DNA from: Nannocystis pusilla
Lineage (GTDB): Bacteria; Myxococcota_A; Polyangia; Nannocystales; Nannocystaceae
DNA length: 64,000 nucleotides
Strand: one strand, 5' to 3'
Assembly: GCF_051105105.1 (NCBI RefSeq)
Contig: NZ_CP185339.1
Position numbers and translations under genes: made by a program. Positions 9,652 to 60,524 of the stretch are shown piece by piece (within the stretch, counting starts at the first letter, position 1; every line of letters begins with the position of its first letter). The notes beneath the pieces are model-generated. The model had not been told where the DNA came from. It saw only the letters and a program-made list of their open reading frames with translations, and did not search any database.

Positions 9652-12600
9652 TTAGTAATTCGAATTACCAAATGAACGCTCGCAGGCGCCGGCCCGTGCC
9701 TCGGCCACGTCGTCGGCCTCTCCGAGGTGGCGCCGGCGCTCCGCCGGCAGCAGGCACGCGCGCGTGGCGGCGGCGAGGCGCGCGCGCAGGCCCTCGCCGG
9801 GCCGCGGCCACACGGCGACGCGGCCGTCGGCGCCGGCCGAGGCGAGGCGGTCGCCGCCGGCGTCGTACGCGAGGGCGTTGACGCCGCCGCCGTGGCCCGC
9901 GAGCAGTTCGGGCCCGGCGTCGCCCTGCAGGGACCAGAAGAGGAGCGCGCCGTCAGCCGCGCCGGCGACGATCCAGCCGTCGCGCGGGTCCCAGGCCACG
10001 CTCGTCAGCGCCGCCGAGGCCCGCCCCAGCTCGGTGCGCACGCCGGTGGCGGCCGCCACGCGGATCAGCGCCCTGCCCTCGCCCGCGACCGCGAGCGCGT
10101 CGCCAGCGGGGCTCCACGCCAGCGCGCGCAGCGGGTGGCCGAGCTCGATGAACACCGTCTGTTCGACGCGCACCAGCACGAAGCCGGAGGCGGTGACGGC
10201 CGCCAGCCGCTCGTCGACCGGCGACCACGCCATGCCGGTGATGGCCCCGCGGCTTTGCGGCGCGCGGGACGGATCGAGCATGTCCTTGAAGTCATGTCCC
10301 GAAGGCCAGAGGAAGAAGGCGCCCTCGCTGCCGCCGGCGGCCAGACGATCGGCGCGCGGATCCCAGGCCAGCGCGGACACCGGGCGGCGATCGACGCTGA
10401 CGCGCCGCGTCGCCCCCTCGCCGCGGGGGATCCAGGTGACCGCGCCGCTGTCGTCGGCGACCGCGAGCTCCTGCCCGTCGCGCCGCCAGGCCAGCGCCAG
10501 CGCGGTGCCGGCGTGGTCGCGCCGACGCACCGGGCCGTCGTCGGTCGGCAGCAGCCACACGCTGCGCGCGCCGGCGGCGGCCAGGGCGGTGCCGTCGGGG
10601 CTCCACGCGAGCGCGTGCACGGCCGCGCCGAGGTCGTGCTCCCGCAGGGCGGCCGGGGCGAGCCGCCACACCCGCGCGCTGCCGTCGTCGCTGCCGGTGA
10701 TGAGCCGGACCCCCACCGGCGCGAACGCCAGCGCCCGCACCGGCCCGGCGTGCCCGCGCAGCACGTAGGGGCGCGAGGTCCCGCCGATCTTCCACACCCG
10801 CGCGCTGCCGTCGTCGCTGCCGCTGGCGAACCACCCTGTCCCGAGAGCCAGGCCGGTGACGCCGCCGTCGCCGACCACCGCGGCGACCCGCCGCGGGGTG
10901 CCGTCGACCCGCCAGACCTCGACGCCGCCGTCATCGCGGCCGATCGCAAGCTGACGCCCGTTGCGATCCCAGGCCAGCGCGCCGACGGCCGCGCCGCGAG
11001 CGACGACCACGGCCGCGCGCCCCTCCGCGACCACCCACACCTCGCCGCGCGGGCCGGCCGCGGCCACGCGCGCGCCGTCGGGGCTCCAGGCGACCGCCGC
11101 GAGCGGACCCGCGACGCCGCGCAGCGGCGTGACCCAATCGACCGCGACCAGCGACACGCCGCCGCGCGCGTCGGTGCGGAGCTGCTCGCCGCCCGGGCCG
11201 CGGCGCGGGTCGGGCGCGGGGCCGCCGGTCCCTGGCGTCGGCGGCCCGCCGGCGAGCGCGAAGCGGCGGACGTTGCCGCCGGCGTCGACCGTCTCGACCG
11301 CGCCGCGCAGATCTTCGGCGGCCGCGGCGGGCCGCGGGCTGTCCTGGGGGACAGCCGACGTGTCCGCGGGGACAGCCGCGCCGGCGACCGGCACCGCGGC
11401 GCTCGCCAGCACGACCTCGCGCGGGTGCGCGTTCGACCTGTCCGCGAGGACAGGCGCAGCGACGACCGCCGCCAATCCGGCCCCGCTCGCCGGCACGACC
11501 TCGCGCCGGCGCGCATTCGACATGTCCACGGGGACAGGCGCAGCAGCGACCGCCGCGGAGCCGGCCGCGCTCGCCAGCACGACCTCGCGCAGGTGCGCGT
11601 TCGACCTGTCCGCGGGGACAGCTCCCGCCCCCGCGCTCGGCCTGCCCTCGCGGACAGCCCCCACCGCGCCCGGCACCGCGCCGGCCGCCGGCCGGCTCCT
11701 GTCCCCCGGGACAGCCTCGATCCAGCGCACCGCCGTCACCGCGCCGTCGTGGCCGCGCAGGATCGCCTGGCTGATCGGCTCGGCCAGCACGCGCTGGGCC
11801 AGCGCGCCCGGCTCGTCGAGCTCGCGCAGCAGCAGCGCGGCGGCGGTCGGGTCGCGCGGCAGCAGCGAGAACGCGGCGTCGCGGACCCGCAGCGCGTGGG
11901 CCTGGCGCTCCGCGGCCGCGCGCTCGGCCGCCAGCTCGCCGGCTCGCGCGTCCGCGGGGGCGCTGTCGGGCGCGGCAGCCTGCGGGGCCGCGGCCCCGCC
12001 TGCGCCCGCGTCGGGCTGCGCCAGCGACACCCCGAGCGCGACCAGCCCCGCCGCGGCGGCCGCGGCCCCGCCGGCGATCAGCCACGTCCGCGCGGGCACC
12101 GGCTCGGGGCCCTCGGCGAAGCGTCGCCGCGGCTGCAGAGCCGCGAGCAGCTCCTCCATCGTCGGCCAGCGCTCGGCTGGCTTTTCGGACAGCCCGCGGA
12201 TGATTGCGCGGCGCACGCGCAACGGCACGCGACTTTCGCGCGGAATGGGCGCGATCTCGACCTGCCCGAAGCGCGGAAGCGAGCCGAACGGCCGCAGACC
12301 GAACAAACCTTCGAACAGCGCCACGCAAAAGCTGAATTGGTCGGAGCGCGGCTCGGCGTTGCCGGTGCGCTGCTGCTCGGGCGCCATGTAGGCCGGCGTG
12401 CCGAGGATGCTGCCGGTGCGCGTCAGCGGCATCAGCTCGTCGTCGAGGGCCTCGCCGGCATCCATGGCGCAGGTGAGCCCGAAGTCGAGGACACGGGCGC
12501 GATCGCGGCTGTCGACGAGCACGTTCTCGGGCTTGAAGTCGCGGTGGAGCAGGTTGGCGTGATGCGCCGCGGCCAGCGCCCGCCCGGCCTGCAGGTACAC

Positions 12601-13065
12601 GGCGAGCACCTCCTGCCACGGCCGCGGGCGCTCGCGCAGCCACGCCTCGAGGGTCACGCCCTCGATGAGCTCCATGGCGATGTAAATTTGGTCGCCCCAC
12701 GCGCCGACCTCGTAGATCCGCGCCACGTGCTCGTGCTCGAGGCGTGCCATCGCCCGGGCCTCGCGCAGCAGGCGGGCGCGCCCCTGGTCGTCACCCTGGA
12801 GGTGCGGGTGCAGCAGCTTGATGGCGACGCGGCGATTGAGCTGGGCGTCGACGGCCGCATACACGACGCCCATGGCCCCCTCCCCGAGCCGGCGCTCGAC
12901 GTGAAAGCGCCCGATCATGGTGGGCGCGGCCGGCTCGCCGAACAGCCGGCCCATGACGCGCGCGTGGAGACGATGGACGTCAACGTCACCCCACGTGCCC
13001 GCACCTGCGCCGCGGGCGGCCCTCGAGTCGGGCGTGTCGGGCGGCGTGTGGGGCGGCGTCGACAT
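9652..13065 (-). CDS. Ser/Thr protein kinase with C-terminal WD40 beta-propeller (PkwA-like); linker contains in-frame 84-bp x3 tandem repeat
   Basis: Kinase motifs GEGAMGVVY, AIKLL, HRDFKPENVLV, DFGL and GTPAYMAPEQ. The C-terminal 600 aa carries many WSPDG/WD-like repeats. Start chosen at MSTPPHTPPD (13065) so that it does not overlap the divergent sigma gene. Confidence 0.85.
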   Translation of the reverse strand: MSTPPHTPPDTPDSRAARGAGAGTWGDVDVHRLHARVMGRLFGEPAAPTMIGRFHVERRLGEGAMGVVYAAVDAQLNRRVAIKLLHPHLQGDDQGRARLLREARAMARLEHEHVARIYEVGAWGDQIYIAMELIEGVTLEAWLRERPRPWQEVLAVYLQAGRALAAAHHANLLHRDFKPENVLVDSRDRARVLDFGLTCAMDAGEALDDELMPLTRTGSILGTPAYMAPEQQRTGNAEPRSDQFSFCVALFEGLFGLRPFGSLPRFGQVEIAPIPRESRVPLRVRRAIIRGLSEKPAERWPTMEELLAALQPRRRFAEGPEPVPARTWLIAGGAAAAAAGLVALGVSLAQPDAGAGGAAAPQAAAPDSAPADARAGELAAERAAAERQAHALRVRDAAFSLLPRDPTAAALLLRELDEPGALAQRVLAEPISQAILRGHDGAVTAVRWIEAVPGDRSRPAAGAVPGAVGAVREGRPSAGAGAVPADRSNAHLREVVLASAAGSAAVAAAPVPVDMSNARRREVVPASGAGLAAVVAAPVLADRSNAHPREVVLASAAVPVAGAAVPADTSAVPQDSPRPAAAAEDLRGAVETVDAGGNVRRFALAGGPPTPGTGGPAPDPRRGPGGEQLRTDARGGVSLVAVDWVTPLRGVAGPLAAVAWSPDGARVAAAGPRGEVWVVAEGRAAVVVARGAAVGALAWDRNGRQLAIGRDDGGVEVWRVDGTPRRVAAVVGDGGVTGLALGTGWFASGSDDGSARVWKIGGTSRPYVLRGHAGPVRALAFAPVGVRLITGSDDGSARVWRLAPAALREHDLGAAVHALAWSPDGTALAAAGARSVWLLPTDDGPVRRRDHAGTALALAWRRDGQELAVADDSGAVTWIPRGEGATRRVSVDRRPVSALAWDPRADRLAAGGSEGAFFLWPSGHDFKDMLDPSRAPQSRGAITGMAWSPVDERLAAVTASGFVLVRVEQTVFIELGHPLRALAWSPAGDALAVAGEGRALIRVAAATGVRTELGRASAALTSVAWDPRDGWIVAGAADGALLFWSLQGDAGPELLAGHGGGVNALAYDAGGDRLASAGADGRVAVWPRPGEGLRARLAAATRACLLPAERRRHLGEADDVAEARAGACERSFGNSNY
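11400..11635. repeat. tandem repeat, about 84 bp x 3, inside the kinase-WD40 CDS (encodes VPADRSNAHLREVVLASAAGSAAVAAAP x3); units contain TTCGAC(A/C)TGTCC motif
   Basis: Direct read: three near-identical units (gctcgccagcacgacctcgcgc...gttcgacctgtccgcg(a/g)ggacag...). Flanks from 11335 to 11720 carry further GTCC...GGGACAG palindromes. Confidence 0.8.
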
Positions 13066-13138
13066 CGTCGGATCGCAGTGAAGATAACAGGCGGAGTGGC
13101 CCCGCGGGCGGCGCGATCGGGGGTAAGATCGAGGCGCC
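13066..13138. promoter_or_regulatory. divergent promoter region between kinase-WD40 gene and ECF sigma gene
   Basis: A 73-bp gap separates the divergent starts. It contains a TAAGAT -10-like element. Assigned from position only. Confidence 0.3.
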
Positions 13139-13798
13139 ATGGACCCCGACTGGGAACTGCTCTCGGCCTGGCGCAGCGGCGATCGCGGCGCGGGAGAGCG
13201 GCTGGTGAAGCGACACTTCGGCGCGATCGCCCGCTTCTTCCGCAACAAGGTCTCGAGCGAGCACGACGCCGCCGACCTCGTCAGTCAGACCTTCCTCGAG
13301 TGCACCAAGGCGAAGGACGGCTTCCGCGGCGAGACCAGCTTCAAGCGGTTCGTCTTCGCCATCGCCCTCAACGTGCTGCGCCTCTACATCCGCACCAAGC
13401 ACAAGCGTCAGGGCGAGGCGCTCGACTTCGGGGCGCTGTGCGCCAAGGACCTGTCGCCGTCGTCGATGAGCTCGATCGTCATGCGCCGGCGCGAGGCCCA
13501 GCTGCTCGTGCTGGCGCTGCGAGAGATCCCGCTCGACCAGCAAATCGTGCTCGAGCTCAACATCTTCGAAGGCCTGTCGGGGCGCGAGATCAGCGAGCTG
13601 CTCAGCGTACCCGAGGGCACCGTGCGCGGCCGGTTGCGCCTCGGCAAGGACCAGCTGCGGGCCCGCCTCGCCGAGCTGGCCCGCTCGCCGGCCGAGCTCC
13701 AGGCCACCCTCACCGACCTCGAGGGCTGGGCCGCCAGCATCCGCCGCGCCCTCGACCGCGACGACGGCGACGCCGGCCCGGCCGCGACCGGCTCGTGA
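13139..13798 (+). CDS. ECF (sigma-70 family, group 4) RNA polymerase sigma factor
   Basis: 219 aa. Region 2 (FFRNKV...DLVSQTFLE) and region 4 (LSGREISELLSVPEGTVRGRL) signatures are present. It is divergent from the kinase gene. Confidence 0.85.
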   Translation: MDPDWELLSAWRSGDRGAGERLVKRHFGAIARFFRNKVSSEHDAADLVSQTFLECTKAKDGFRGETSFKRFVFAIALNVLRLYIRTKHKRQGEALDFGALCAKDLSPSSMSSIVMRRREAQLLVLALREIPLDQQIVLELNIFEGLSGREISELLSVPEGTVRGRLRLGKDQLRARLAELARSPAELQATLTDLEGWAASIRRALDRDDGDAGPAATGS

Positions 13799-51825: not shown

Positions 51826-52863
51826 TCACCAGCGGAGCCGCACCAGCCCGTCGCCCGCGCGCACCGCGGGTAGCCCGCTGCTGGCCGGGTCGGCGCCGAG
51901 GAGCGACGACCCGCCGCCCCCGCCGGCCGCGTGGGCCGAGCCGCCGCCGAACCAGCCGCCTCCGCCGCCCGCCACGTGATAGACCCCGCCGCCCCCGCCC
52001 TCGCCGAACCCGCCGGGCTCGCCGGGCGTCGAGCCCTCGGCCCCGCCGTGGCTCTGCGTCCCGCCGCCGGCCGCCTGCCACTCGGGCAGCAGCGCCACCC
52101 CGGGGCCGCCGATCGCAAGCCCGCCCGGGCCGCCTGCGCCGTGGTCCGGGCAGCCGCACTGCCCGCCCCCGCCGCCGGCCGCGACGAAGATCCGATCGTC
52201 GAGCGTCCCGCCGTCCCGGCGCACGTCGCTGGCTCCGCCCCCACCGCCCGCGAACGCGCCGCCGAGGCCGCCGCCGTTGTAGCCCGCCGCGCCCTCGAGC
52301 CCGCCGCGTCCGCCGACGCGGATCTGCAGCGCCTCGCCGGGCTCCACCTCGAGCTCCGCCCGCACGTAGGCGCCGAGCCCTCCGTCCGCCTGATCGATCC
52401 CGTCGCAGCAGCGCGAACCGCCGCCCTGCGCGCCCCACAGCTCGACGGTGAGCCGCGACACGCACTCGGGCACCACGAACGTCTCCGGCGCGCCGGTGAA
52501 TTTGAACTCGCGCGCGCTCCCGTCGGGCGTCGCGCGCGTGCGGTCGACGCAGCGCCCGTCGCAGCGGATCTGGCCGGGCCCGCACTGCGCCTCGCAATAG
52601 CCCGCCGCACACGTGCCGGCGCACACGCGCCCGCAGCCGCCGCAGTGACGCGCGTCGCTCGCGACGTCGACGCACTCGGCCTCGCACACGTCGAGCGCCT
52701 CCGCCTCGCAGGCGAGCGCCAGCGCCTCGTCGGCCTCGGCCCCGGCACCGGCGACCGTGCTCGGCACCGGTCGCAGGTGGCGAGTGTCCGTGATCTCGTC
52801 GCAGCCGCCGGACACGATTGCGAGCATCACCGACACCGTACGCCACCGACCCTCGACGACCAT
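51826..52863 (-). CDS. Cys-rich / glycine-rich secreted protein (Gly_rich PF12810-like), paralog 1
   Basis: N-terminal Cys-rich modules come first. Then FKFTGAPETFVVPECVSRLTVELWGAQGG, followed by long GGxGG tracts. Confidence 0.65.
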   Translation of the reverse strand: MVVEGRWRTVSVMLAIVSGGCDEITDTRHLRPVPSTVAGAGAEADEALALACEAEALDVCEAECVDVASDARHCGGCGRVCAGTCAAGYCEAQCGPGQIRCDGRCVDRTRATPDGSAREFKFTGAPETFVVPECVSRLTVELWGAQGGGSRCCDGIDQADGGLGAYVRAELEVEPGEALQIRVGGRGGLEGAAGYNGGGLGGAFAGGGGGASDVRRDGGTLDDRIFVAAGGGGGQCGCPDHGAGGPGGLAIGGPGVALLPEWQAAGGGTQSHGGAEGSTPGEPGGFGEGGGGGVYHVAGGGGGWFGGGSAHAAGGGGGSSLLGADPASSGLPAVRAGDGLVRLRW

Positions 52864-53082
52864 CTGCGCGGCCTCCCCTGCGACCTGTAGGCATGATGCG
52901 CACGAGGCATCCACGCAAACACCCCTGTGTCGCCAGTCACGAGCGATCGTCATTCACATGTCCATCAAGACATGTCCAAAAGACCATTGTCCCATCACCG
53001 GGTCGTCCACCGCGATGCAGCGCCGTCTCGACGCGGCCCCGCTCGCGACCACGACCTCGCGTCGCGCCAGGCGGACCGCGGC

Positions 53083-53937
53083 TCACCAGTAGATCTGCAC
53101 CGCACCGTCGCCGCGGCGCGCTCCCGCCTCGAACTCCACCTCGTCCGCATCGACGCCGACGTACGACGAACCGCCGCCACCGCCCGCGCCGAAGGCTCCG
53201 CCGCCGCCGTACCAGCCGCCGCCGCCGCCGGCCACGTGATAGCGCGCCGCTCCGCCGCCGAGCCCGAACACGCCGGACTGGCCGGGCGACGAGCCGCCTG
53301 CGCCCCCTGCGTGTTGTCTGCCTCCGCCGCCGGCGTTCCAGTCGGCCTCGCCCACGATCCCGTCGTCGCCGACGAGCCCGCCGCCGTCGCCGCCCGCTCC
53401 GTGGTCCGGAAAGCCGCACGAGCCGCCGCCTCCGCCGCCTACCACCAGCGCGCGATCGATCAAGCTCGCGCCGCCGATCCGGATGTCCGATCCGCCGCCG
53501 CCGCCGCCGGCCCACACGCCGCCGCGTCCGCCTCCGTTCCACCCCGGCGCCCCGTCGATCCCCCCGCGCCCGCCGACCAGCACCAGCAGCACCTCGCCGG
53601 GTCGCACCGGCAGCTCGGCGCGCAGCCAGCCGCCGCGACCGCCGTCCATCTGCACGTCGGGCAGCCCGTGGATCTCGTCGATGCCGCAGCGGCTCGGACC
53701 GCCCTGCGCGCCCCACAGCTCGACCGACAGCGTCGTCACGCACTCCGGCACCACGAACACCTGCGGTCCGCCCGTGAACGCGAACCCGCGCCCGCCCGGA
53801 CCCGCGCACGCCGGCACCCCGTCCGGCACCATCCCGTCGAGCCCCACGATCTCGGGCGCGTGGCAGCCGAGCAGCGCCACGAGCGCCGCGGCCCGGAGTC
53901 CGGGTCCAATGTGTGAGCCGCTCCCCTGCATCGCCAC
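53083..53937 (-). CDS. glycine-rich lipoprotein (Gly_rich PF12810-like), paralog 2
   Basis: Lipobox ALLGC. FAFTGGPQVFVVPECVTTLSVELWGAQGG is followed by Gly tracts. Tandem with paralog 1. Confidence 0.7.
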   Translation of the reverse strand: MAMQGSGSHIGPGLRAAALVALLGCHAPEIVGLDGMVPDGVPACAGPGGRGFAFTGGPQVFVVPECVTTLSVELWGAQGGPSRCGIDEIHGLPDVQMDGGRGGWLRAELPVRPGEVLLVLVGGRGGIDGAPGWNGGGRGGVWAGGGGGGSDIRIGGASLIDRALVVGGGGGGSCGFPDHGAGGDGGGLVGDDGIVGEADWNAGGGGRQHAGGAGGSSPGQSGVFGLGGGAARYHVAGGGGGWYGGGGAFGAGGGGGSSYVGVDADEVEFEAGARRGDGAVQIYW

Positions 53938-53994
53938 CCCTTCCCCAGGGATGCGCGGCGCCGTCCGCGATGCAACCGCCGCCCGTGCTGCGCG

Positions 53995-54195
53995 TCACGC
54001 CTCGCATGATATGATCTCAAGGACATGTCCTATCAGTCAGATCATGAGGACAAAGGCGACGACGCCCGTCCTTCGAGACAGCCCTTCAAGCAGCGCCTGG
54101 CGAGGGTCGCATGCGCCTCGAGACATGCCCCTGAGGCCATATCCCTTCCGACATGCCCTCAAGGACATGCCATCCGGGACATGCCCCTTCATCCG
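53995..54195. repeat. intergenic arrays of GACATGCCC units with about 14-15 bp spacing
   Basis: ctcaaggacatgtcctatcagtcagatcatgaggac. Then gacatgcccctgag/gccatatcccttcc/gacatgccctcaag/gacatgccatccgg/gacatgccccttca. Confidence 0.7.
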
Positions 54196-54217
54196 CACCA
54201 GCAGCGCGCCGACCCGC

Positions 54218-57787: not shown

Positions 57788-58099
57788 GTGGATCGCCTGG
57801 CGATGCTCCGACAGTTCGTGGCCCAAAAGCCAGGTGAGGCGTTCCCGCGCTACGGCCTGGCCATGGAGCTGAAGCGCCGCGGGCAGCTCGCCGAGGCGAT
57901 CGTCGAGTTCCGCGAGCTCATCGCCAAGATCCCCGAGTACGTGCCCGCCTACCTGATGGCCGGCAACACCCTGGTCGAGGCCGGCGACCGCGACGGCGCC
58001 CTGCAGGTCCTCGATCAGGGCGTCCAGGCCGCGCGCGCGGCCGGCGACGCGCACGCGCTCGGCGAGCTCGAATCCGCCCGCACCGCGCTGGAAGGGTGA
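57788..58099 (+). CDS. small TPR-like protein
   Basis: 103 aa. Helical repeats of the form ...AIVEFRELIAKIPEYVPAYLMAGNTLVEAGDRDGA... Confidence 0.55.
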   Translation: MDRLAMLRQFVAQKPGEAFPRYGLAMELKRRGQLAEAIVEFRELIAKIPEYVPAYLMAGNTLVEAGDRDGALQVLDQGVQAARAAGDAHALGELESARTALEG

Positions 58100-59016
58100 G
58101 CGCCACGTCCAGGCTCGCCGACGCCGCCGCGATCGACCTGGTGTTCGCCAGTCCGCGGCGGCTGCCCAAGCCCGCGAACCTGCGCGGCCGCGTGGTCGTG
58201 CTCAACGTCGCCTTCGCGGCCGAGGGCATCGGCAGCGGCTTCGAGAAGATCACGGGCAAGTTCCTCACCGGCCTGGGCGCGCGCCTGGCCCGGTGGGTCG
58301 ACCACCACGATCACGAGCGCCACGCCCAGTTCCGCGGCGACCCGCGCTTCGTGCTCCACACCAAGGCCGAGCACGGCGCCTGCCCCGAGATCATCACGCC
58401 CCAGATGGTCGAAGAGACAGGTCCTGTCGACACCATCGTCGCCCACTTCGACCTCGACGGCCTCTACTCGGCCGCCAAGTGGCTGCTCCGCGGCGTCGAG
58501 CCCTACCCCGGCGCCGACGCCGACGCCCGCGCCGTCGACACCCGGATCGGCGAGGTCGGCCCGATCGGCGCCCTCGTCGACAAGGCGCTGCGGGCCCACT
58601 ACGAGGACACCGTCCTCCTCAACAAGATCGTCCGCTGGCTGGTCGCCGGCCGCCCGCGCGGCGCCGAGCAGGAGGCGATCGCCGCCGCCGCCGCCGACTT
58701 CGACGCCATGGCCGCCGAGGCCGCCGCGCTGGCCCGCGCCTACGTCGTCGAGGACGGCGTCGCCCTCGTGCGCGTGCCCGGCAACGCGCGCTCGTTCGAC
58801 AAGACCGAGCTGCTGCTGCTCGGCCAGGAGCGCGCCCCCGTGGCGGTCGTCATCGACGGCCAGACCCTGAACATCGCCGCCAGCTTCGCCAGCGGCCTCG
58901 ACTTCGTCGCCCTGCTCGGCCTCGGCGGCGGCATGCCGACGCGCGTCAGCGTGCCCGCCTCGCGCCTCGACGACACCCTCGTCAAGATCCGCGCGGCCCT
59001 GCGCGCGCGCGGCTGA
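58096..59016 (+). CDS. hypothetical protein
   Basis: 306 aa ORF. The start overlaps the upstream stop. No recognisable domain. Confidence 0.5.
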   Translation: MSATSRLADAAAIDLVFASPRRLPKPANLRGRVVVLNVAFAAEGIGSGFEKITGKFLTGLGARLARWVDHHDHERHAQFRGDPRFVLHTKAEHGACPEIITPQMVEETGPVDTIVAHFDLDGLYSAAKWLLRGVEPYPGADADARAVDTRIGEVGPIGALVDKALRAHYEDTVLLNKIVRWLVAGRPRGAEQEAIAAAAADFDAMAAEAAALARAYVVEDGVALVRVPGNARSFDKTELLLLGQERAPVAVVIDGQTLNIAASFASGLDFVALLGLGGGMPTRVSVPASRLDDTLVKIRAALRARG

Positions 59017-59043
59017 GCTGCCCCTCGGGACACTGTCGCATTC

Positions 59044-59280
59044 GACATGTCCCGAGAGACATTTTTGTCTCCGGGCGGGTCGGCTGTCCGCCGCGTGCCG
59101 GCGACATGTCCCGAGAGACACTCTCGTCTCGCGCGGTCTCCCGGGCCCTGCACGCGATCAACCTGTCCCGAGAGACACTCTCCGCTCCGGCGGTCACGTG
59201 TCCCGGCGCGCGGGCGCGACATGTCCCGAGAGACATCTCTGTCTCCAGGCCGGCCCTGTCGCCGCTCGCCCGCAGGGGGC
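59044..59280. repeat. higher-order tandem repeat, 4 units of about 58 bp, each built as CGACATGTCCCGAGAGACA-N5-GTCTC...
   Basis: Direct read: cgacatgtcccgagagacatttttgtctcc..., cgacatgtcccgagagacactctcgtctcg..., ctgtcccgagagacactctccgctcc..., cgacatgtcccgagagacatctctgtctcc... Confidence 0.85.
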
Positions 59281-59414
59281 GCTGACGCGCCCTCGTCCCG
59301 CGATCTCGCCCAGATCGAGAGCTCACTGGGTGTTGCAGGTCGGGGACGCAAATAGGACCCTGGCGCCCGCAGTCCGAGTGCCCACCACGGGCCGACCCCC
59401 CAGGAGAATCACAC

Positions 59415-59774
59415 ATGTCGCAACGTCCTCGTCTGTCCCTCCTCGCCGCGCTGACCGCCTTGATGCTCCCCGGCGCCGCCTTCGCCGACTCCAGCGGCAC
59501 GGCCGGCAACGTCGAAGCCGTCACCCTCTACGAGAGCAGCAGCGACAACCACGCCATGTTCAACGGCTCGGTCTCGATCGAGGAGAAGACCGGGCAAAAG
59601 CGCGACTACAAGTGGGGCGGCTCGCTGTGCCCCGGCCGCGAGCTCAGCGCCAACTCGATCAACCTGCTGTTCGAGGCCCTGCGCGCCAGGAAGCAGGTCG
59701 AGGTCACGCCCACCTACAAGGCCGGCAACGGCGGCGAGCGCTGCCTCACCGGCTTCAAGCTCGAGAACCGCTGA
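59415..59774 (+). CDS. small secreted hypothetical protein
   Basis: GGAGAA RBS and a signal peptide (LSLLAALTALMLPGAAFA). 119 aa. Confidence 0.65.
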   Translation: MSQRPRLSLLAALTALMLPGAAFADSSGTAGNVEAVTLYESSSDNHAMFNGSVSIEEKTGQKRDYKWGGSLCPGRELSANSINLLFEALRARKQVEVTPTYKAGNGGERCLTGFKLENR

Positions 59775-59882
59775 GGCCCGGCCGGCCGCCGCCCGTCGTC
59801 ACTCCCCCCGGCGACGCGCGCCGACCGGCAAGCCCCATGTCTCTTCGGCCATGTCCTTCACGACATGGCCGTTCTTACGCGC

Positions 59883-60524
59883 TCACAGCGGCTGCCACTG
59901 CAGCGTCTCGACCGCGATCTCGTAGCCGAACCACCCGTTGACGAGCCGCAGGCGCGACGGCAGCGCGCCGTCCTTCATCCCGCCCTCGTAGGTGACGACG
60001 ATCTCCCCGCCCGGCTTGCCGTCCTTGCGCTCGAAGCGGCGCTCGAGCAGCGCCCCGCCCTGCCACACCTCGGTCACCCGCTCCTCGCCGACCTCGCCGC
60101 GGTGGGTCCCGTCGGCCAGCGGCGCCCCCGGCAGGCCGAGGAACTGCACCCGGTGGACGTCGAGCAGCATGAAGCGGGGCGGGAACGGCAGCTTGCCCTC
60201 GGGCGCGAACACGTCGACCTTGACCTCCGCGCCCTGCTGCTTGGCCACGAACGCCTTGGTAGCGAACGGCGTCAGCCCGATCAGCGTCAGCGCGTCGCCC
60301 TGCTTCTGCAGCACCACCTCGCCGCCGATCTCGCGCCCGCGGGCCGTCCCATGCAACCTCTGCCGGGCCATGAAGTCGGGCCCCGTCAGCGTCGTCGCCA
60401 GCGCCCCCGGGTAGTCGGCCTCCGACAGCTGCGGCGGCGCCGACTCGGCCTCCTGTCCCTTCGCACATGCCCCGAGGAGCATGGCTGCCACGACAGGACC
60501 GAAAGGCCATGCTCTCCGGTTCAT
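59883..60524 (-). CDS. lipoprotein (DUF3261-like), downstream of MMPL exporter
   Basis: Lipobox MLLGAC. 213 aa. Translationally coupled to the MMPL gene, whose stop overlaps its start. Confidence 0.65.
   Translation of the reverse strand: MNRRAWPFGPVVAAMLLGACAKGQEAESAPPQLSEADYPGALATTLTGPDFMARQRLHGTARGREIGGEVVLQKQGDALTLIGLTPFATKAFVAKQQGAEVKVDVFAPEGKLPFPPRFMLLDVHRVQFLGLPGAPLADGTHRGEVGEERVTEVWQGGALLERRFERKDGKPGGEIVVTYEGGMKDGALPSRLRLVNGWFGYEIAVETLQWQPL

What the first reader, a model, noticed from the sequence alone, without database searches (positions are those of the whole stretch)
59044..59280. Higher-order tandem array (4 x about 58 bp) of the GACATGTCC element with internal GAGAGACA...TGTCTC hairpins
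This is the longest and most regular manifestation of the repeat family. Each 58-bp unit equals four 14-bp sub-units and begins CGACATGTCCCGAGAGACA-N5-GTCTC. It lies between an uncharacterised gene and a small secreted-protein gene. The structure is minisatellite-like and could be an expansion hotspot. It superficially resembles a CRISPR array but lacks unique spacers.
Basis: seen in the sequence. Interest (0 to 1): 0.5.

Follow-up and report, generated by a model that had tools for sequence, protein, structure and literature searches.

The report
Amplified REP-like palindrome cluster in Nannocystis
The four-copy array is real: it is a locally amplified, copy-number-variable cluster of a short palindromic repeat that litters the gene ends of one Nannocystis lineage, much like the REP/BIME clusters of other bacteria, and it is not a CRISPR array.

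Summary
The window comes from a Nannocystis genome, closest to N. pusilla and sp. RBIL2. At 59043-59274 a 19-nt box, CGACATGTCCCGAGAGACA, recurs four times at 59/57/58-nt spacing. The rest of each unit has diverged so far that Tandem Repeats Finder does not call the array.

The box is one subtype of a dispersed family with a GGACATGTCC core. The core (GACATGTCC, one mismatch allowed) is about 9-fold over-represented in the window. It forms 22 clusters in strict 14-nt register, 20 of them non-coding. These clusters sit preferentially within 30 nt of stop codons. The family is dense in cultured Nannocystis and essentially absent from other Nannocystaceae and Polyangia sampled.

At the orthologous site the unit count runs 1, 2, about 4, 4, 4, 5 and 8 across seven Nannocystis genomes. 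More distant relatives carry only a post-stop hairpin. Other family sites show similar "box plus flank" reiterations.

There are no unique spacers, no cas genes, no Rfam match and no plasmid or phage similarity. The GAGACA/TGTCTC hairpin shows no covariation.

Best reading: a REP/BIME-like extragenic palindrome cluster that expands and contracts by slippage or unequal recombination. It lacks the GTAG/CGTC tags, and a RAYT partner could not be tested. I rate it of modest interest, as a new member of a known kind.

The parts
58096..59016 (+). Upstream gene of 306 aa, conserved across Myxococcota, with no Pfam or NCBIfam family. Its stop codon lies 7 nt before the hairpin.
59024..59056 (+). Post-stop-codon hairpin: CUCGGGACA-c-UGUCG / CAUU / CGACA-UGUCCCGAG, 14 bp with one bulge. 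It is built from inverted family units. Its 3' arm is the first A-box.
   Evidence: Inverted repeat I6; minimum-free-energy and centroid folds. A counterpart is present in all Nannocystis orthologous loci, and in L123 and L124.
59043..59101 (+). Unit 1 (59 nt): A-box at 59043-59061, hairpin GAGACA-UUUU-UGUCUC, then a B-like box GGTCGGCTGTCC.
59102..59158 (+). Unit 2 (57 nt): A-box at 59102-59120, with a 5-bp hairpin.
59159..59216 (+). Unit 3 (58 nt): A-box variant CAACCTGTCCCGAGAGACA at 59159-59177, a degenerate hairpin, and B-box GGTCACGTGTCCC.
59217..59274 (+). Unit 4 (58 nt), the gene-proximal copy. The stretch 59218-59252, GACATGTCCCGAGAGACATCTCTGTCTCCAGGCCG, is almost invariant in seven Nannocystis genomes.
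59328..59365 (+). Invariant block GGTGTTGCAGGTCGGGGACGCAAATAGGACCCTGGC, probably the promoter or leader of the downstream gene. The TTGCNN-N12-AATAG pattern recurs upstream of paralogues that carry no family repeat.
   Evidence: No sigma-70 consensus hit.
59415..59774 (+). Downstream gene of 119 aa with a signal-peptide-like N-terminus, preceded by the ribosome-binding site AGGAG. Its homologues are all from Nannocystis genomes or unnamed metagenome assemblies, and it has no Pfam family.
59831..59872 (.). Neighbouring family cluster between convergent genes, with a perfect 10-bp hairpin GGCCAUGUCC/GGACAUGGCC (z = -5.0). It shows the ordinary form of the family.

Best explanation
The array is a locally amplified cluster of a lineage-specific, REP/BIME-like extragenic palindromic repeat family of Nannocystis.

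The family unit is a self-complementary 10-mer, GGACATGTCC, plus about 4 nt. Because the 10-mer equals its own reverse complement, two neighbouring units are both an inverted repeat (a 10-bp stem with a 4-6-nt loop) and a direct repeat 14 nt apart. Slippage therefore adds or removes units in exact 14-nt steps (inferred).

Such elements sit mainly just after stop codons, where they form 3'-end hairpins. At this locus the ancestral state was one post-stop hairpin behind the 306-aa gene. Its 3' arm (the A-box) together with about 40 nt of flanking DNA was then reiterated head to tail. Unequal recombination or slippage between A-boxes now changes the copy number, from 1 to 8 among species.

Shown here: the anatomy, the family, its stop-codon association, its lineage restriction, the copy-number variation, and the selective conservation of the A-box. 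Inferred: the slippage or recombination mechanism; that the A-box is kept by sequence-specific recognition by an unidentified factor or by gene conversion; and any effect on the flanking genes.
For: The array is there and is non-random.

Family enrichment. The core motif gives 100 hits against 11 expected. CATG-to-CATG spacings are 14 nt (30 pairs), 28 (16), 42 (10) and 56 (5), with none at 13 or 15. There are 22 phased clusters, 20 of them in the 19% of the window that is non-coding.

3'-end association. 11 of 19 non-coding clusters lie within 30 nt of a stop codon, against 5.0 +/- 1.4 under random placement in the same intergenic regions; none of 5000 simulations reached 11. Clusters occupy 4 of 5 convergent but only 1 of 4 divergent intergenic regions. 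In metagenome contigs, single copies of the same 18-mer mostly lie 2-45 nt from a stop codon.

Hairpins. Dispersed clusters fold with z-scores of -2.8 to -5.0 (one of nine only -1.4). Post-stop hairpins appear behind many genes.

Lineage restriction. The motif occurs at 3.8-10 per 10 kb in the window and L001-L005, and at about 0-2 per 10 kb in the other 35 loci examined (L006-L040).

Copy-number series at the orthologous site. The N. pusilla Na p29 array scores as 58 nt x 5.4 copies, and better as 111 nt x 2.4, which suggests duplication of two-unit blocks.

Other reiterations of 'family box plus flank'. L003 has 4 copies at 101/89/101-nt spacing. L002 has about 4 copies. L005 has a 96-nt unit x 2.5 copies that includes a duplicated gene end. 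At 54119-54188 the 14-nt unit number is 5 in the window and 4 in RBIL2.

A-box conservation. Positions 3-19 are at least 90% conserved in 14 of 17 columns across 20 units, while the rest of the unit drifts.

Literature. [quoted passage not shown]
Against: The family lacks the GTAG or CGTC terminal tag that defines the two large REP super-families; units begin CGAC or GGAC.

No RAYT or any other transposase is encoded by the window genes scanned, and the whole genome could not be searched, so mobility is unproven.

Adjacent units are only modestly more often inverted than direct copies of each other (71 against 43, with 53 ties).

The four array units themselves fold unremarkably, with z-scores of -1.7, -0.2, -0.5 and -3.2.

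The near-invariance of the last copy in seven species, and one independent case of the same 18-mer upstream of a paralogue of the downstream gene (L081 and L115), could instead mean a gene-specific regulatory site.
Confidence: 0.6

Rival explanations
1. The array is a cis-regulatory set of protein-binding sites (operators or upstream activating sites) for the downstream small secreted-protein gene. A dimeric regulator would recognise the A-box (ATGTC-N6-GACAT), and copy number would tune expression.
For: The A-box is conserved far better than the rest of each unit. The gene-proximal copy and its 3' flank are almost invariant in seven species. The hairpin partner is not conserved, so the sequence rather than the fold is what is kept. 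The exact 18-mer, in the opposite orientation, lies about 200-250 nt upstream of a 41-44% identical homologue in two related metagenome contigs. One of these carries three family palindromes at roughly 48-nt spacing, the 18-mer being the middle one.
Against: The same box, and the family as a whole, occur next to many unrelated genes, mostly at their stop codons and in convergent intergenic regions. Paralogues of the gene in the same genomes keep the promoter-like TTGCAG-N12-AATAG block but have no family repeat upstream. Copy number ranges from 1 to 8 with no conservation of the inner copies. L081 and L115 are orthologous to each other, so they count as one event.
Confidence: 0.15
2. The family units are the host's own transcription terminators or mRNA 3'-end stabilisers. 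The array would then be a stack of such signals that insulates the upstream gene from the downstream promoter.
For: There is a strong association with stop codons and convergent gene pairs. Stable hairpins follow stop codons directly. The unit spacer is rich in A/T, pyrimidine-rich (C/T) on its 5' side and purine-rich (A/G) on its 3' side, which gives the A-tract / hairpin / T-tract layout of bidirectional terminators. Copy 1 carries a T5 run.
Against: The consensus terminator scan finds nothing in 58900-59950. T-runs are short or set off from the stem. Clusters also occur inside a probable operon (60461-60516) and in divergent regions. Generic terminators do not share one sequence genome-wide. 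Array units 2 and 3 fold no better than shuffled sequence.
Confidence: 0.18
3. The array is an orphan or degenerate CRISPR array.
For: Repeats are regularly spaced and partly palindromic, about 19-29 nt long, with intervening stretches of about 29-39 nt.
Against: The intervening stretches are related to one another and are conserved between species. They have no similarity to plasmids or phages. No cas genes occur in the window genes scanned. The repeat belongs to a dispersed family with dozens of loci in 64 kb.
Confidence: 0.01
4. The array is a structured non-coding RNA or a small-ORF-coding repeat of the MIRU type.
For: The whole intergenic region folds better than shuffled sequence (z = -4.0). 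An ATG-initiated ORF (59047-59355) runs through the array.
Against: There is no Rfam match at the gathering threshold, and only one chance-level hit at E <= 1. The hairpin shows no covariation. Unit lengths of 57-59 nt are not multiples of 3, so changes in copy number break any reading frame. The ORF's GC content by codon position is 0.67/0.74/0.67, against about 0.93 at the third position in real genes.
Confidence: 0.04

Closest known systems
REP / BIME clusters (repetitive extragenic palindromes of Enterobacteria, Pseudomonas, Stenotrophomonas and others) and REPINs
   Same: Both are short imperfect palindromes at high copy number. Both are almost exclusively extragenic and often abut stop codons. 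Both are lineage-specific and occur as singletons, doublets (hairpins) and larger clusters in which an element plus flanking DNA is reiterated in tandem. Both clusters vary between strains (PMC3733652).
   Different: This family has no GTAG or CGTC tag. Its arm is itself a perfect palindrome, so arrays run in strict 14-nt register. Its density is very high, about one phased cluster per 3 kb. No RAYT partner could be sought in the genome.
MIRU-VNTR and other bacterial intergenic minisatellites
   Same: Both have units of about 58 nt arranged head to tail in an intergenic region, with copy number differing between close relatives (1 to 8).
   Different: MIRUs lie between genes of an operon and carry small ORFs coupled to the flanking genes. 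Here there is no frame conservation and only one third of the unit is conserved. The unit also derives from a dispersed palindrome family.
Neisseria DUS or Haemophilus USS pairs in terminators
   Same: Both are genome-wide over-represented 9-12-mers that often occur as inverted pairs forming hairpins just downstream of genes.
   Different: Uptake sequences are also common inside genes and are not tandemly phased. No evidence bears on DNA uptake here. In this window 20 of 22 phased clusters are non-coding.
CRISPR arrays
   Same: Both show regular spacing of a short, partly palindromic repeat.
   Different: There are no unique spacers, no cas genes and no leader-polarised growth. The repeat is dispersed genome-wide.

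Membership tests
REP/BIME (RAYT-associated REP super-families) | Short (20-40 nt) imperfect palindrome, many copies, extragenic | tested here: met
   100 core hits against 11 expected. 20 of 22 phased clusters are non-coding. Doublets fold as 9-11-bp hairpins with z-scores of -3 to -5.
REP/BIME (RAYT-associated REP super-families) | GTAG or CGTC tetranucleotide tag at one end (PMC3733652) | tested here: not met
   Units begin CGAC, GGAC or AGAC. The position weight matrix shows no GTAG or CGTC flank.
REP/BIME (RAYT-associated REP super-families) | A cognate Y1 transposase (RAYT) gene flanked by the repeats | not testable with these tools
   No transposase among about 45 window ORFs scanned.
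REP/BIME (RAYT-associated REP super-families) | Clusters made of elements reiterated in tandem with flanking DNA, variable between strains | tested here: met
   This array has 1 to 8 units across species. Other arrays occur in L002, L003 and L005.
REP/BIME (RAYT-associated REP super-families) | Preference for gene 3' ends and stop codons | tested here: met
   11 of 19 clusters lie within 30 nt of a stop codon against 5.0 +/- 1.4 expected; none of 5000 simulations reached 11. Metagenome copies behave the same way.
CRISPR array | Unique spacers of foreign origin between near-identical repeats | tested here: not met
   The inter-box stretches share CGGTC...TGTCC motifs and are conserved between species. 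No plasmid or phage match.
CRISPR array | Associated cas genes or leader | tested here: not met
   No Cas domain in the window genes scanned.
Minisatellite / VNTR | Head-to-tail units of 10-100 bp | tested here: met
   Spacing is 59/57/58 nt. TRF fails on the window copy but nt x 5.4 in N. pusilla Na p29.
Minisatellite / VNTR | Copy-number polymorphism among related genomes | tested here: met
   1, 2, about 4, 4, 4, 5 and 8 units. No array in L123 or L124.
MIRU | Unit encodes a small ORF in frame with or coupled to the flanking genes | tested here: not met
   Units of 57-59 nt are not multiples of 3. The ORF through the array has GC content of 0.67/0.74/0.67 by codon position.
Intrinsic terminator | GC-rich hairpin immediately followed by a U-tract | tested here: inconclusive
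   The consensus scan finds none. A 14-bp post-stop hairpin exists, but the U5 run starts 6 nt after its stem.
Any Rfam RNA family | Match at the gathering score | tested here: not met
   0 hits in the window. Only one chance-level hit (E = 0.4) in 58950-59900.

The most novel reading that the evidence does not exclude
The 14-nt-phased GGACATGTCC family may be the recognition set of a dedicated, still unidentified sequence-specific factor that marks thousands of gene ends in one Nannocystis clade. That factor could be a RAYT-like transposase of a new type, or a protein that binds 3'-end hairpins or structures the nucleoid. On this reading the invariant A-boxes of the array form a multi-site landing pad whose copy number modulates read-through from the 306-aa gene or expression of the small secreted protein.
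Probability: 0.15. Interest if true: 0.55.

Novelty: new member of a known kind. Interest (0 to 1): 0.3.

Why it matters
Nannocystis genomes are among the largest bacterial genomes (the contigs seen here reach 11-13 Mb), and their intergenic DNA is essentially undescribed. Full-text searches found nothing on such repeats in Nannocystis.

Recognising this family has three practical uses. It prevents false CRISPR or sRNA calls. It explains hypervariable intergenic regions and assembly trouble. It offers ready-made VNTR markers for strain typing.

The family also provides a clean natural case for studying slippage. Because the unit is self-complementary, it is both an inverted and a direct repeat, and arrays stay in strict 14-nt register. 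If a cognate protein exists, the family would extend the REP/RAYT theme to Myxococcota.

Tried and rejected
CRISPR. Rejected: the spacers are related and conserved, there are no cas genes, and the repeat is dispersed.

Known RNA family. None at the gathering threshold or at E <= 1.

Sigma-70 promoter or canonical terminator in 58900-59950. None found. By eye I also looked for sigma-54 (-24/-12) spacing in the conserved block; it does not fit on either strand.

Conserved GAGACA/TGTCTC hairpin. No covariation, and pairing equals the shuffled control.

'Four 14-nt sub-units per unit'. Only two are in register.

Coding potential. Rejected on frame and on GC content at the third codon position.

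Mobile-element origin. No plasmid or phage similarity. Viral-contig scans gave two unrelated hits for the doublet and none for the A-box.

Operator of the small-protein gene family. Paralogue loci (L119-L121, L125-L127) keep the promoter-like block but have no family repeat. The L081/L115 association remains unexplained.

Analogous dispersed families in other Nannocystaceae MAGs. Not seen. L006 has only local TGTATCG palindromes.

Exact-protein look-up of the window's 119-aa product. Not on record.

Inverted versus direct relationship of adjacent units. Mixed, so not decisive for a hairpin-only model.

Full report
WHAT IS THERE

Reading 58700-59700 and running the repeat finder show four copies of a box starting at 59043, 59102, 59159 and 59217, spaced 59, 57 and 58 nt. 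The first 19 nt, CGACATGTCCCGAGAGACA, are identical in copies 1, 2 and 4; copy 3 has two changes. The 14-mer TGTCCCGAGAGACA is exact in all four copies and occurs exactly nowhere else in the window. With up to two mismatches there are 15 matches against 0.38 expected.

The remainder of each unit has diverged. The 37-nt copies are 70-89% identical, and Tandem Repeats Finder reports nothing here at score >=30. The GAGACA-N4-6-TGTCTC hairpin is perfect in copies 1 and 4, has 5 bp in copy 2 and is degenerate in copy 3.

The array lies in a 398-nt intergenic region. Upstream is a 306-aa gene (58096-59016) with no Pfam or NCBIfam family. Downstream is a 119-aa gene (59415-59774) with a signal-peptide-like N-terminus.

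Just after the upstream stop codon, 59024-59056 forms a 14-bp hairpin (CUCGGGACA-c-UGUCG / CAUU / CGACA-UGUCCCGAG). Its 3' arm is the first box.

THE ORGANISM AND THE FAMILY

The upstream protein places the window in Nannocystis. It is 97-98% identical to sp. RBIL2 and N. pusilla Na p29, and 90-94% identical to N. exedens, N. bainbridge and N. radixulma. GC content is 73%.

The box is one subtype of a dispersed family:
- GACATGTCC with up to one mismatch gives 100 matches against 11.0 +/- 4.3 expected.
- CATG-to-CATG distances are 14 nt (30 pairs), 28 (16), 42 (10) and 56 (5), with none at 13 or 15. The register is strictly 14 nt.
- The unit is roughly w-a-g-G-A-C-A-T-G-y-C-C-n-w: a self-complementary 10-12-mer plus a short A/T-enriched spacer, pyrimidine-rich (C/T) on its 5' side and purine-rich (A/G) on its 3' side.
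- A weight-matrix scan finds 22 phased clusters of two to five units. Twenty of them lie in the 19% of the window that is non-coding.
- Eleven of 19 non-coding clusters lie within 30 nt of a stop codon, against 5.0 +/- 1.4 if placed at random in the same intergenic regions. None of 5000 simulations reached 11. Four of five convergent intergenic regions carry a cluster, but only one of four divergent ones.
- Folded as RNA, typical clusters give long imperfect hairpins with z-scores of -2.8 to -5.0 in eight of nine, because two neighbouring 10-mers pair with each other. Such hairpins follow many stop codons directly.
- The motif is dense (3.8-10 per 10 kb) in the window and the five cultured Nannocystis genomes, and at about background level in other Nannocystaceae, Polyangia, Kofleriaceae and Haliangiales loci.

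No paper in the searchable library describes this family.

COMPARISON OF THE LOCUS ACROSS GENOMES

Aligning the orthologous intergenic regions gives these unit counts: 1 in N. radixulma, 2 in N. punicea, about 4 in N. exedens (inner ones decayed), 4 in the window and in RBIL2, 5 in N. bainbridge and 8 in N. pusilla Na p29.

In Na p29, TRF scores the array as 58 nt x 5.4 copies (76% matches) and better as 111 nt x 2.4 copies (84%). This suggests duplication of two-unit blocks.

Two more distant syntenic loci, whose downstream protein is 67-73% identical, have the post-stop family hairpin and at most one unit. The ancestral state was therefore a single stop-proximal element, and the array is a derived amplification.

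Across 20 units from six species, box positions 3-19 are at least 90% conserved in 14 of 17 columns. The rest drifts, apart from a weaker CGGTC..CTGTCC box. The gene-proximal unit (59218-59252) is almost invariant in seven species. So is a block at 59328-59365, which paralogues share as TTGCNN-N12-AATAG and which is probably the downstream gene's promoter or leader.

Only 64% of cells pair, the same as the shuffled control, and there are no compensatory changes.

THE SAME BEHAVIOUR ELSEWHERE

The intergenic region at 53980-54217 is hypervariable among the six genomes. The window has five 14-nt units where RBIL2 has four. N. exedens has a 32-nt family box four times at 101/89/101-nt spacing. 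Na p29 has about four copies at 48-71 nt. N. radixulma has a 96-nt unit x 2.5 copies that includes a duplicated gene 3' end. Reiteration of 'family element plus flank' is therefore a recurrent property of the family, not a peculiarity of this site.

A metagenome scan for the exact 18-mer returned 36 high-GC contigs, each with a single copy. In most intergenic cases the copy lies 2-45 nt from a stop codon.

INTERPRETATION

The anatomy matches published descriptions of REP/BIME elements. These are short extragenic palindromes, often next to stop codons and specific to a lineage. [quoted passage not shown]

I therefore read the array as a REP-like cluster that expands and contracts by slippage or unequal recombination between its A-boxes.

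The strict 14-nt register has a simple inferred cause. Because the arm is its own reverse complement, the two arms of a hairpin are also direct repeats 14 nt apart, which is an ideal slippage substrate.

Selective conservation of the A-box, irrespective of its hairpin partner, implies either sequence-specific recognition by some factor or continual gene conversion from the family. I cannot tell which.

Membership in the RAYT-associated REP super-families is not established. The GTAG/CGTC tag is absent. A RAYT gene could not be searched for genome-wide; none is in the window.

RIVALS

A gene-specific operator array is the most serious rival. In its favour are the invariant last copy and one independent case of the same 18-mer upstream of a 41-44% identical homologue (L081 and L115, which are orthologous to each other). 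Against it, the box and the family sit beside many unrelated genes. Paralogues in the same genomes lack any family repeat upstream although they keep the promoter-like block.

A terminator or stabiliser role is compatible with the main reading but unproven. The consensus terminator scan finds nothing.

CRISPR, known RNA families, coding potential, and plasmid, phage or viral origin were all tested and rejected.

VERDICT

The array is an ordinary kind of object, a REP/BIME-like cluster or VNTR, belonging to a previously undescribed Nannocystis-specific family with an unusually strict 14-nt phasing. Interest is modest.

Noticed in passing
window 11356-11622: An 84-nt (28-aa) x 3.3 tandem repeat lies inside the linker between the kinase and WD40 domains of a Ser/Thr kinase gene (9652-13248, minus strand). 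Each unit carries a family-like palindrome, CTGTCC-GCGG-GGACAG. It may be a family element taken up into coding sequence.
   Followed up: partly
window 59775-59882; L003 11733-12924; L005 11494-12652: The convergent intergenic region with the perfect family hairpin (59831-59872) is conserved in the three closest genomes and expanded in N. bainbridge. In N. exedens and N. radixulma it is interrupted by different inserts of about 1.1 kb. The region is a variable hot spot.
   Followed up: partly
L081 1455-1780 and L115 962-1300 (metagenome contigs): The exact 18-mer GACATGTCCCGAGAGACA, in the opposite orientation, lies about 200-250 nt upstream of a 41-44% identical homologue of the 119-aa gene. 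L081 has three family palindromes at roughly 48-nt spacing there, two of the form TGTCC-GAAA-GGACA with the 18-mer copy between them. Chance or a real link remains unresolved.
   Followed up: partly
window 59328-59365; L119-L121 about 2385-2420; L125-L127: A promoter-like block, TTGCAG-N12-AATAGG/C, is conserved upstream of both paralogue groups of the small secreted protein. It does not match the sigma-70 consensus and may belong to an alternative sigma factor. The paralogue group sits next to a divergent TetR gene and lon.
   Followed up: partly
window 51826-52953 and 53083-53994: Two adjacent paralogous genes are about 70% identical in nucleotide sequence. One has an MXAN_6577-like Cys-rich domain and the other an ALK/LTK glycine-rich domain. 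They are separated by a family doublet at 52952-52979.
   Followed up: no
L006 10995-11075: In a Nannocystis MAG where the GGACATGTCC motif is near background level, the same position behind the orthologous gene carries different, purely local palindromes (TGTATCGTTTTGAAACACA and TGTGTATCGTTTCGATACACA). This may be an operator for the different downstream gene.
   Followed up: partly
window 31729-33648: A roughly 2.5-kb stretch (31110-33606) is 80% identical in nucleotide sequence to L006, far above the neighbouring genes. It contains a 639-aa minus-strand ORF (31729-33648) with no Pfam hit. My GC3-based gene caller missed this ORF.
   Followed up: no
L117 5880-6040 (IMG/VR contig, GC 0.44): An unrelated low-GC viral contig carries 12 GGACATGTCC-like sites, including CGGACATGTCGGACAGGACATGTCATG. 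It is probably that phage's own operator repeats.
   Followed up: no
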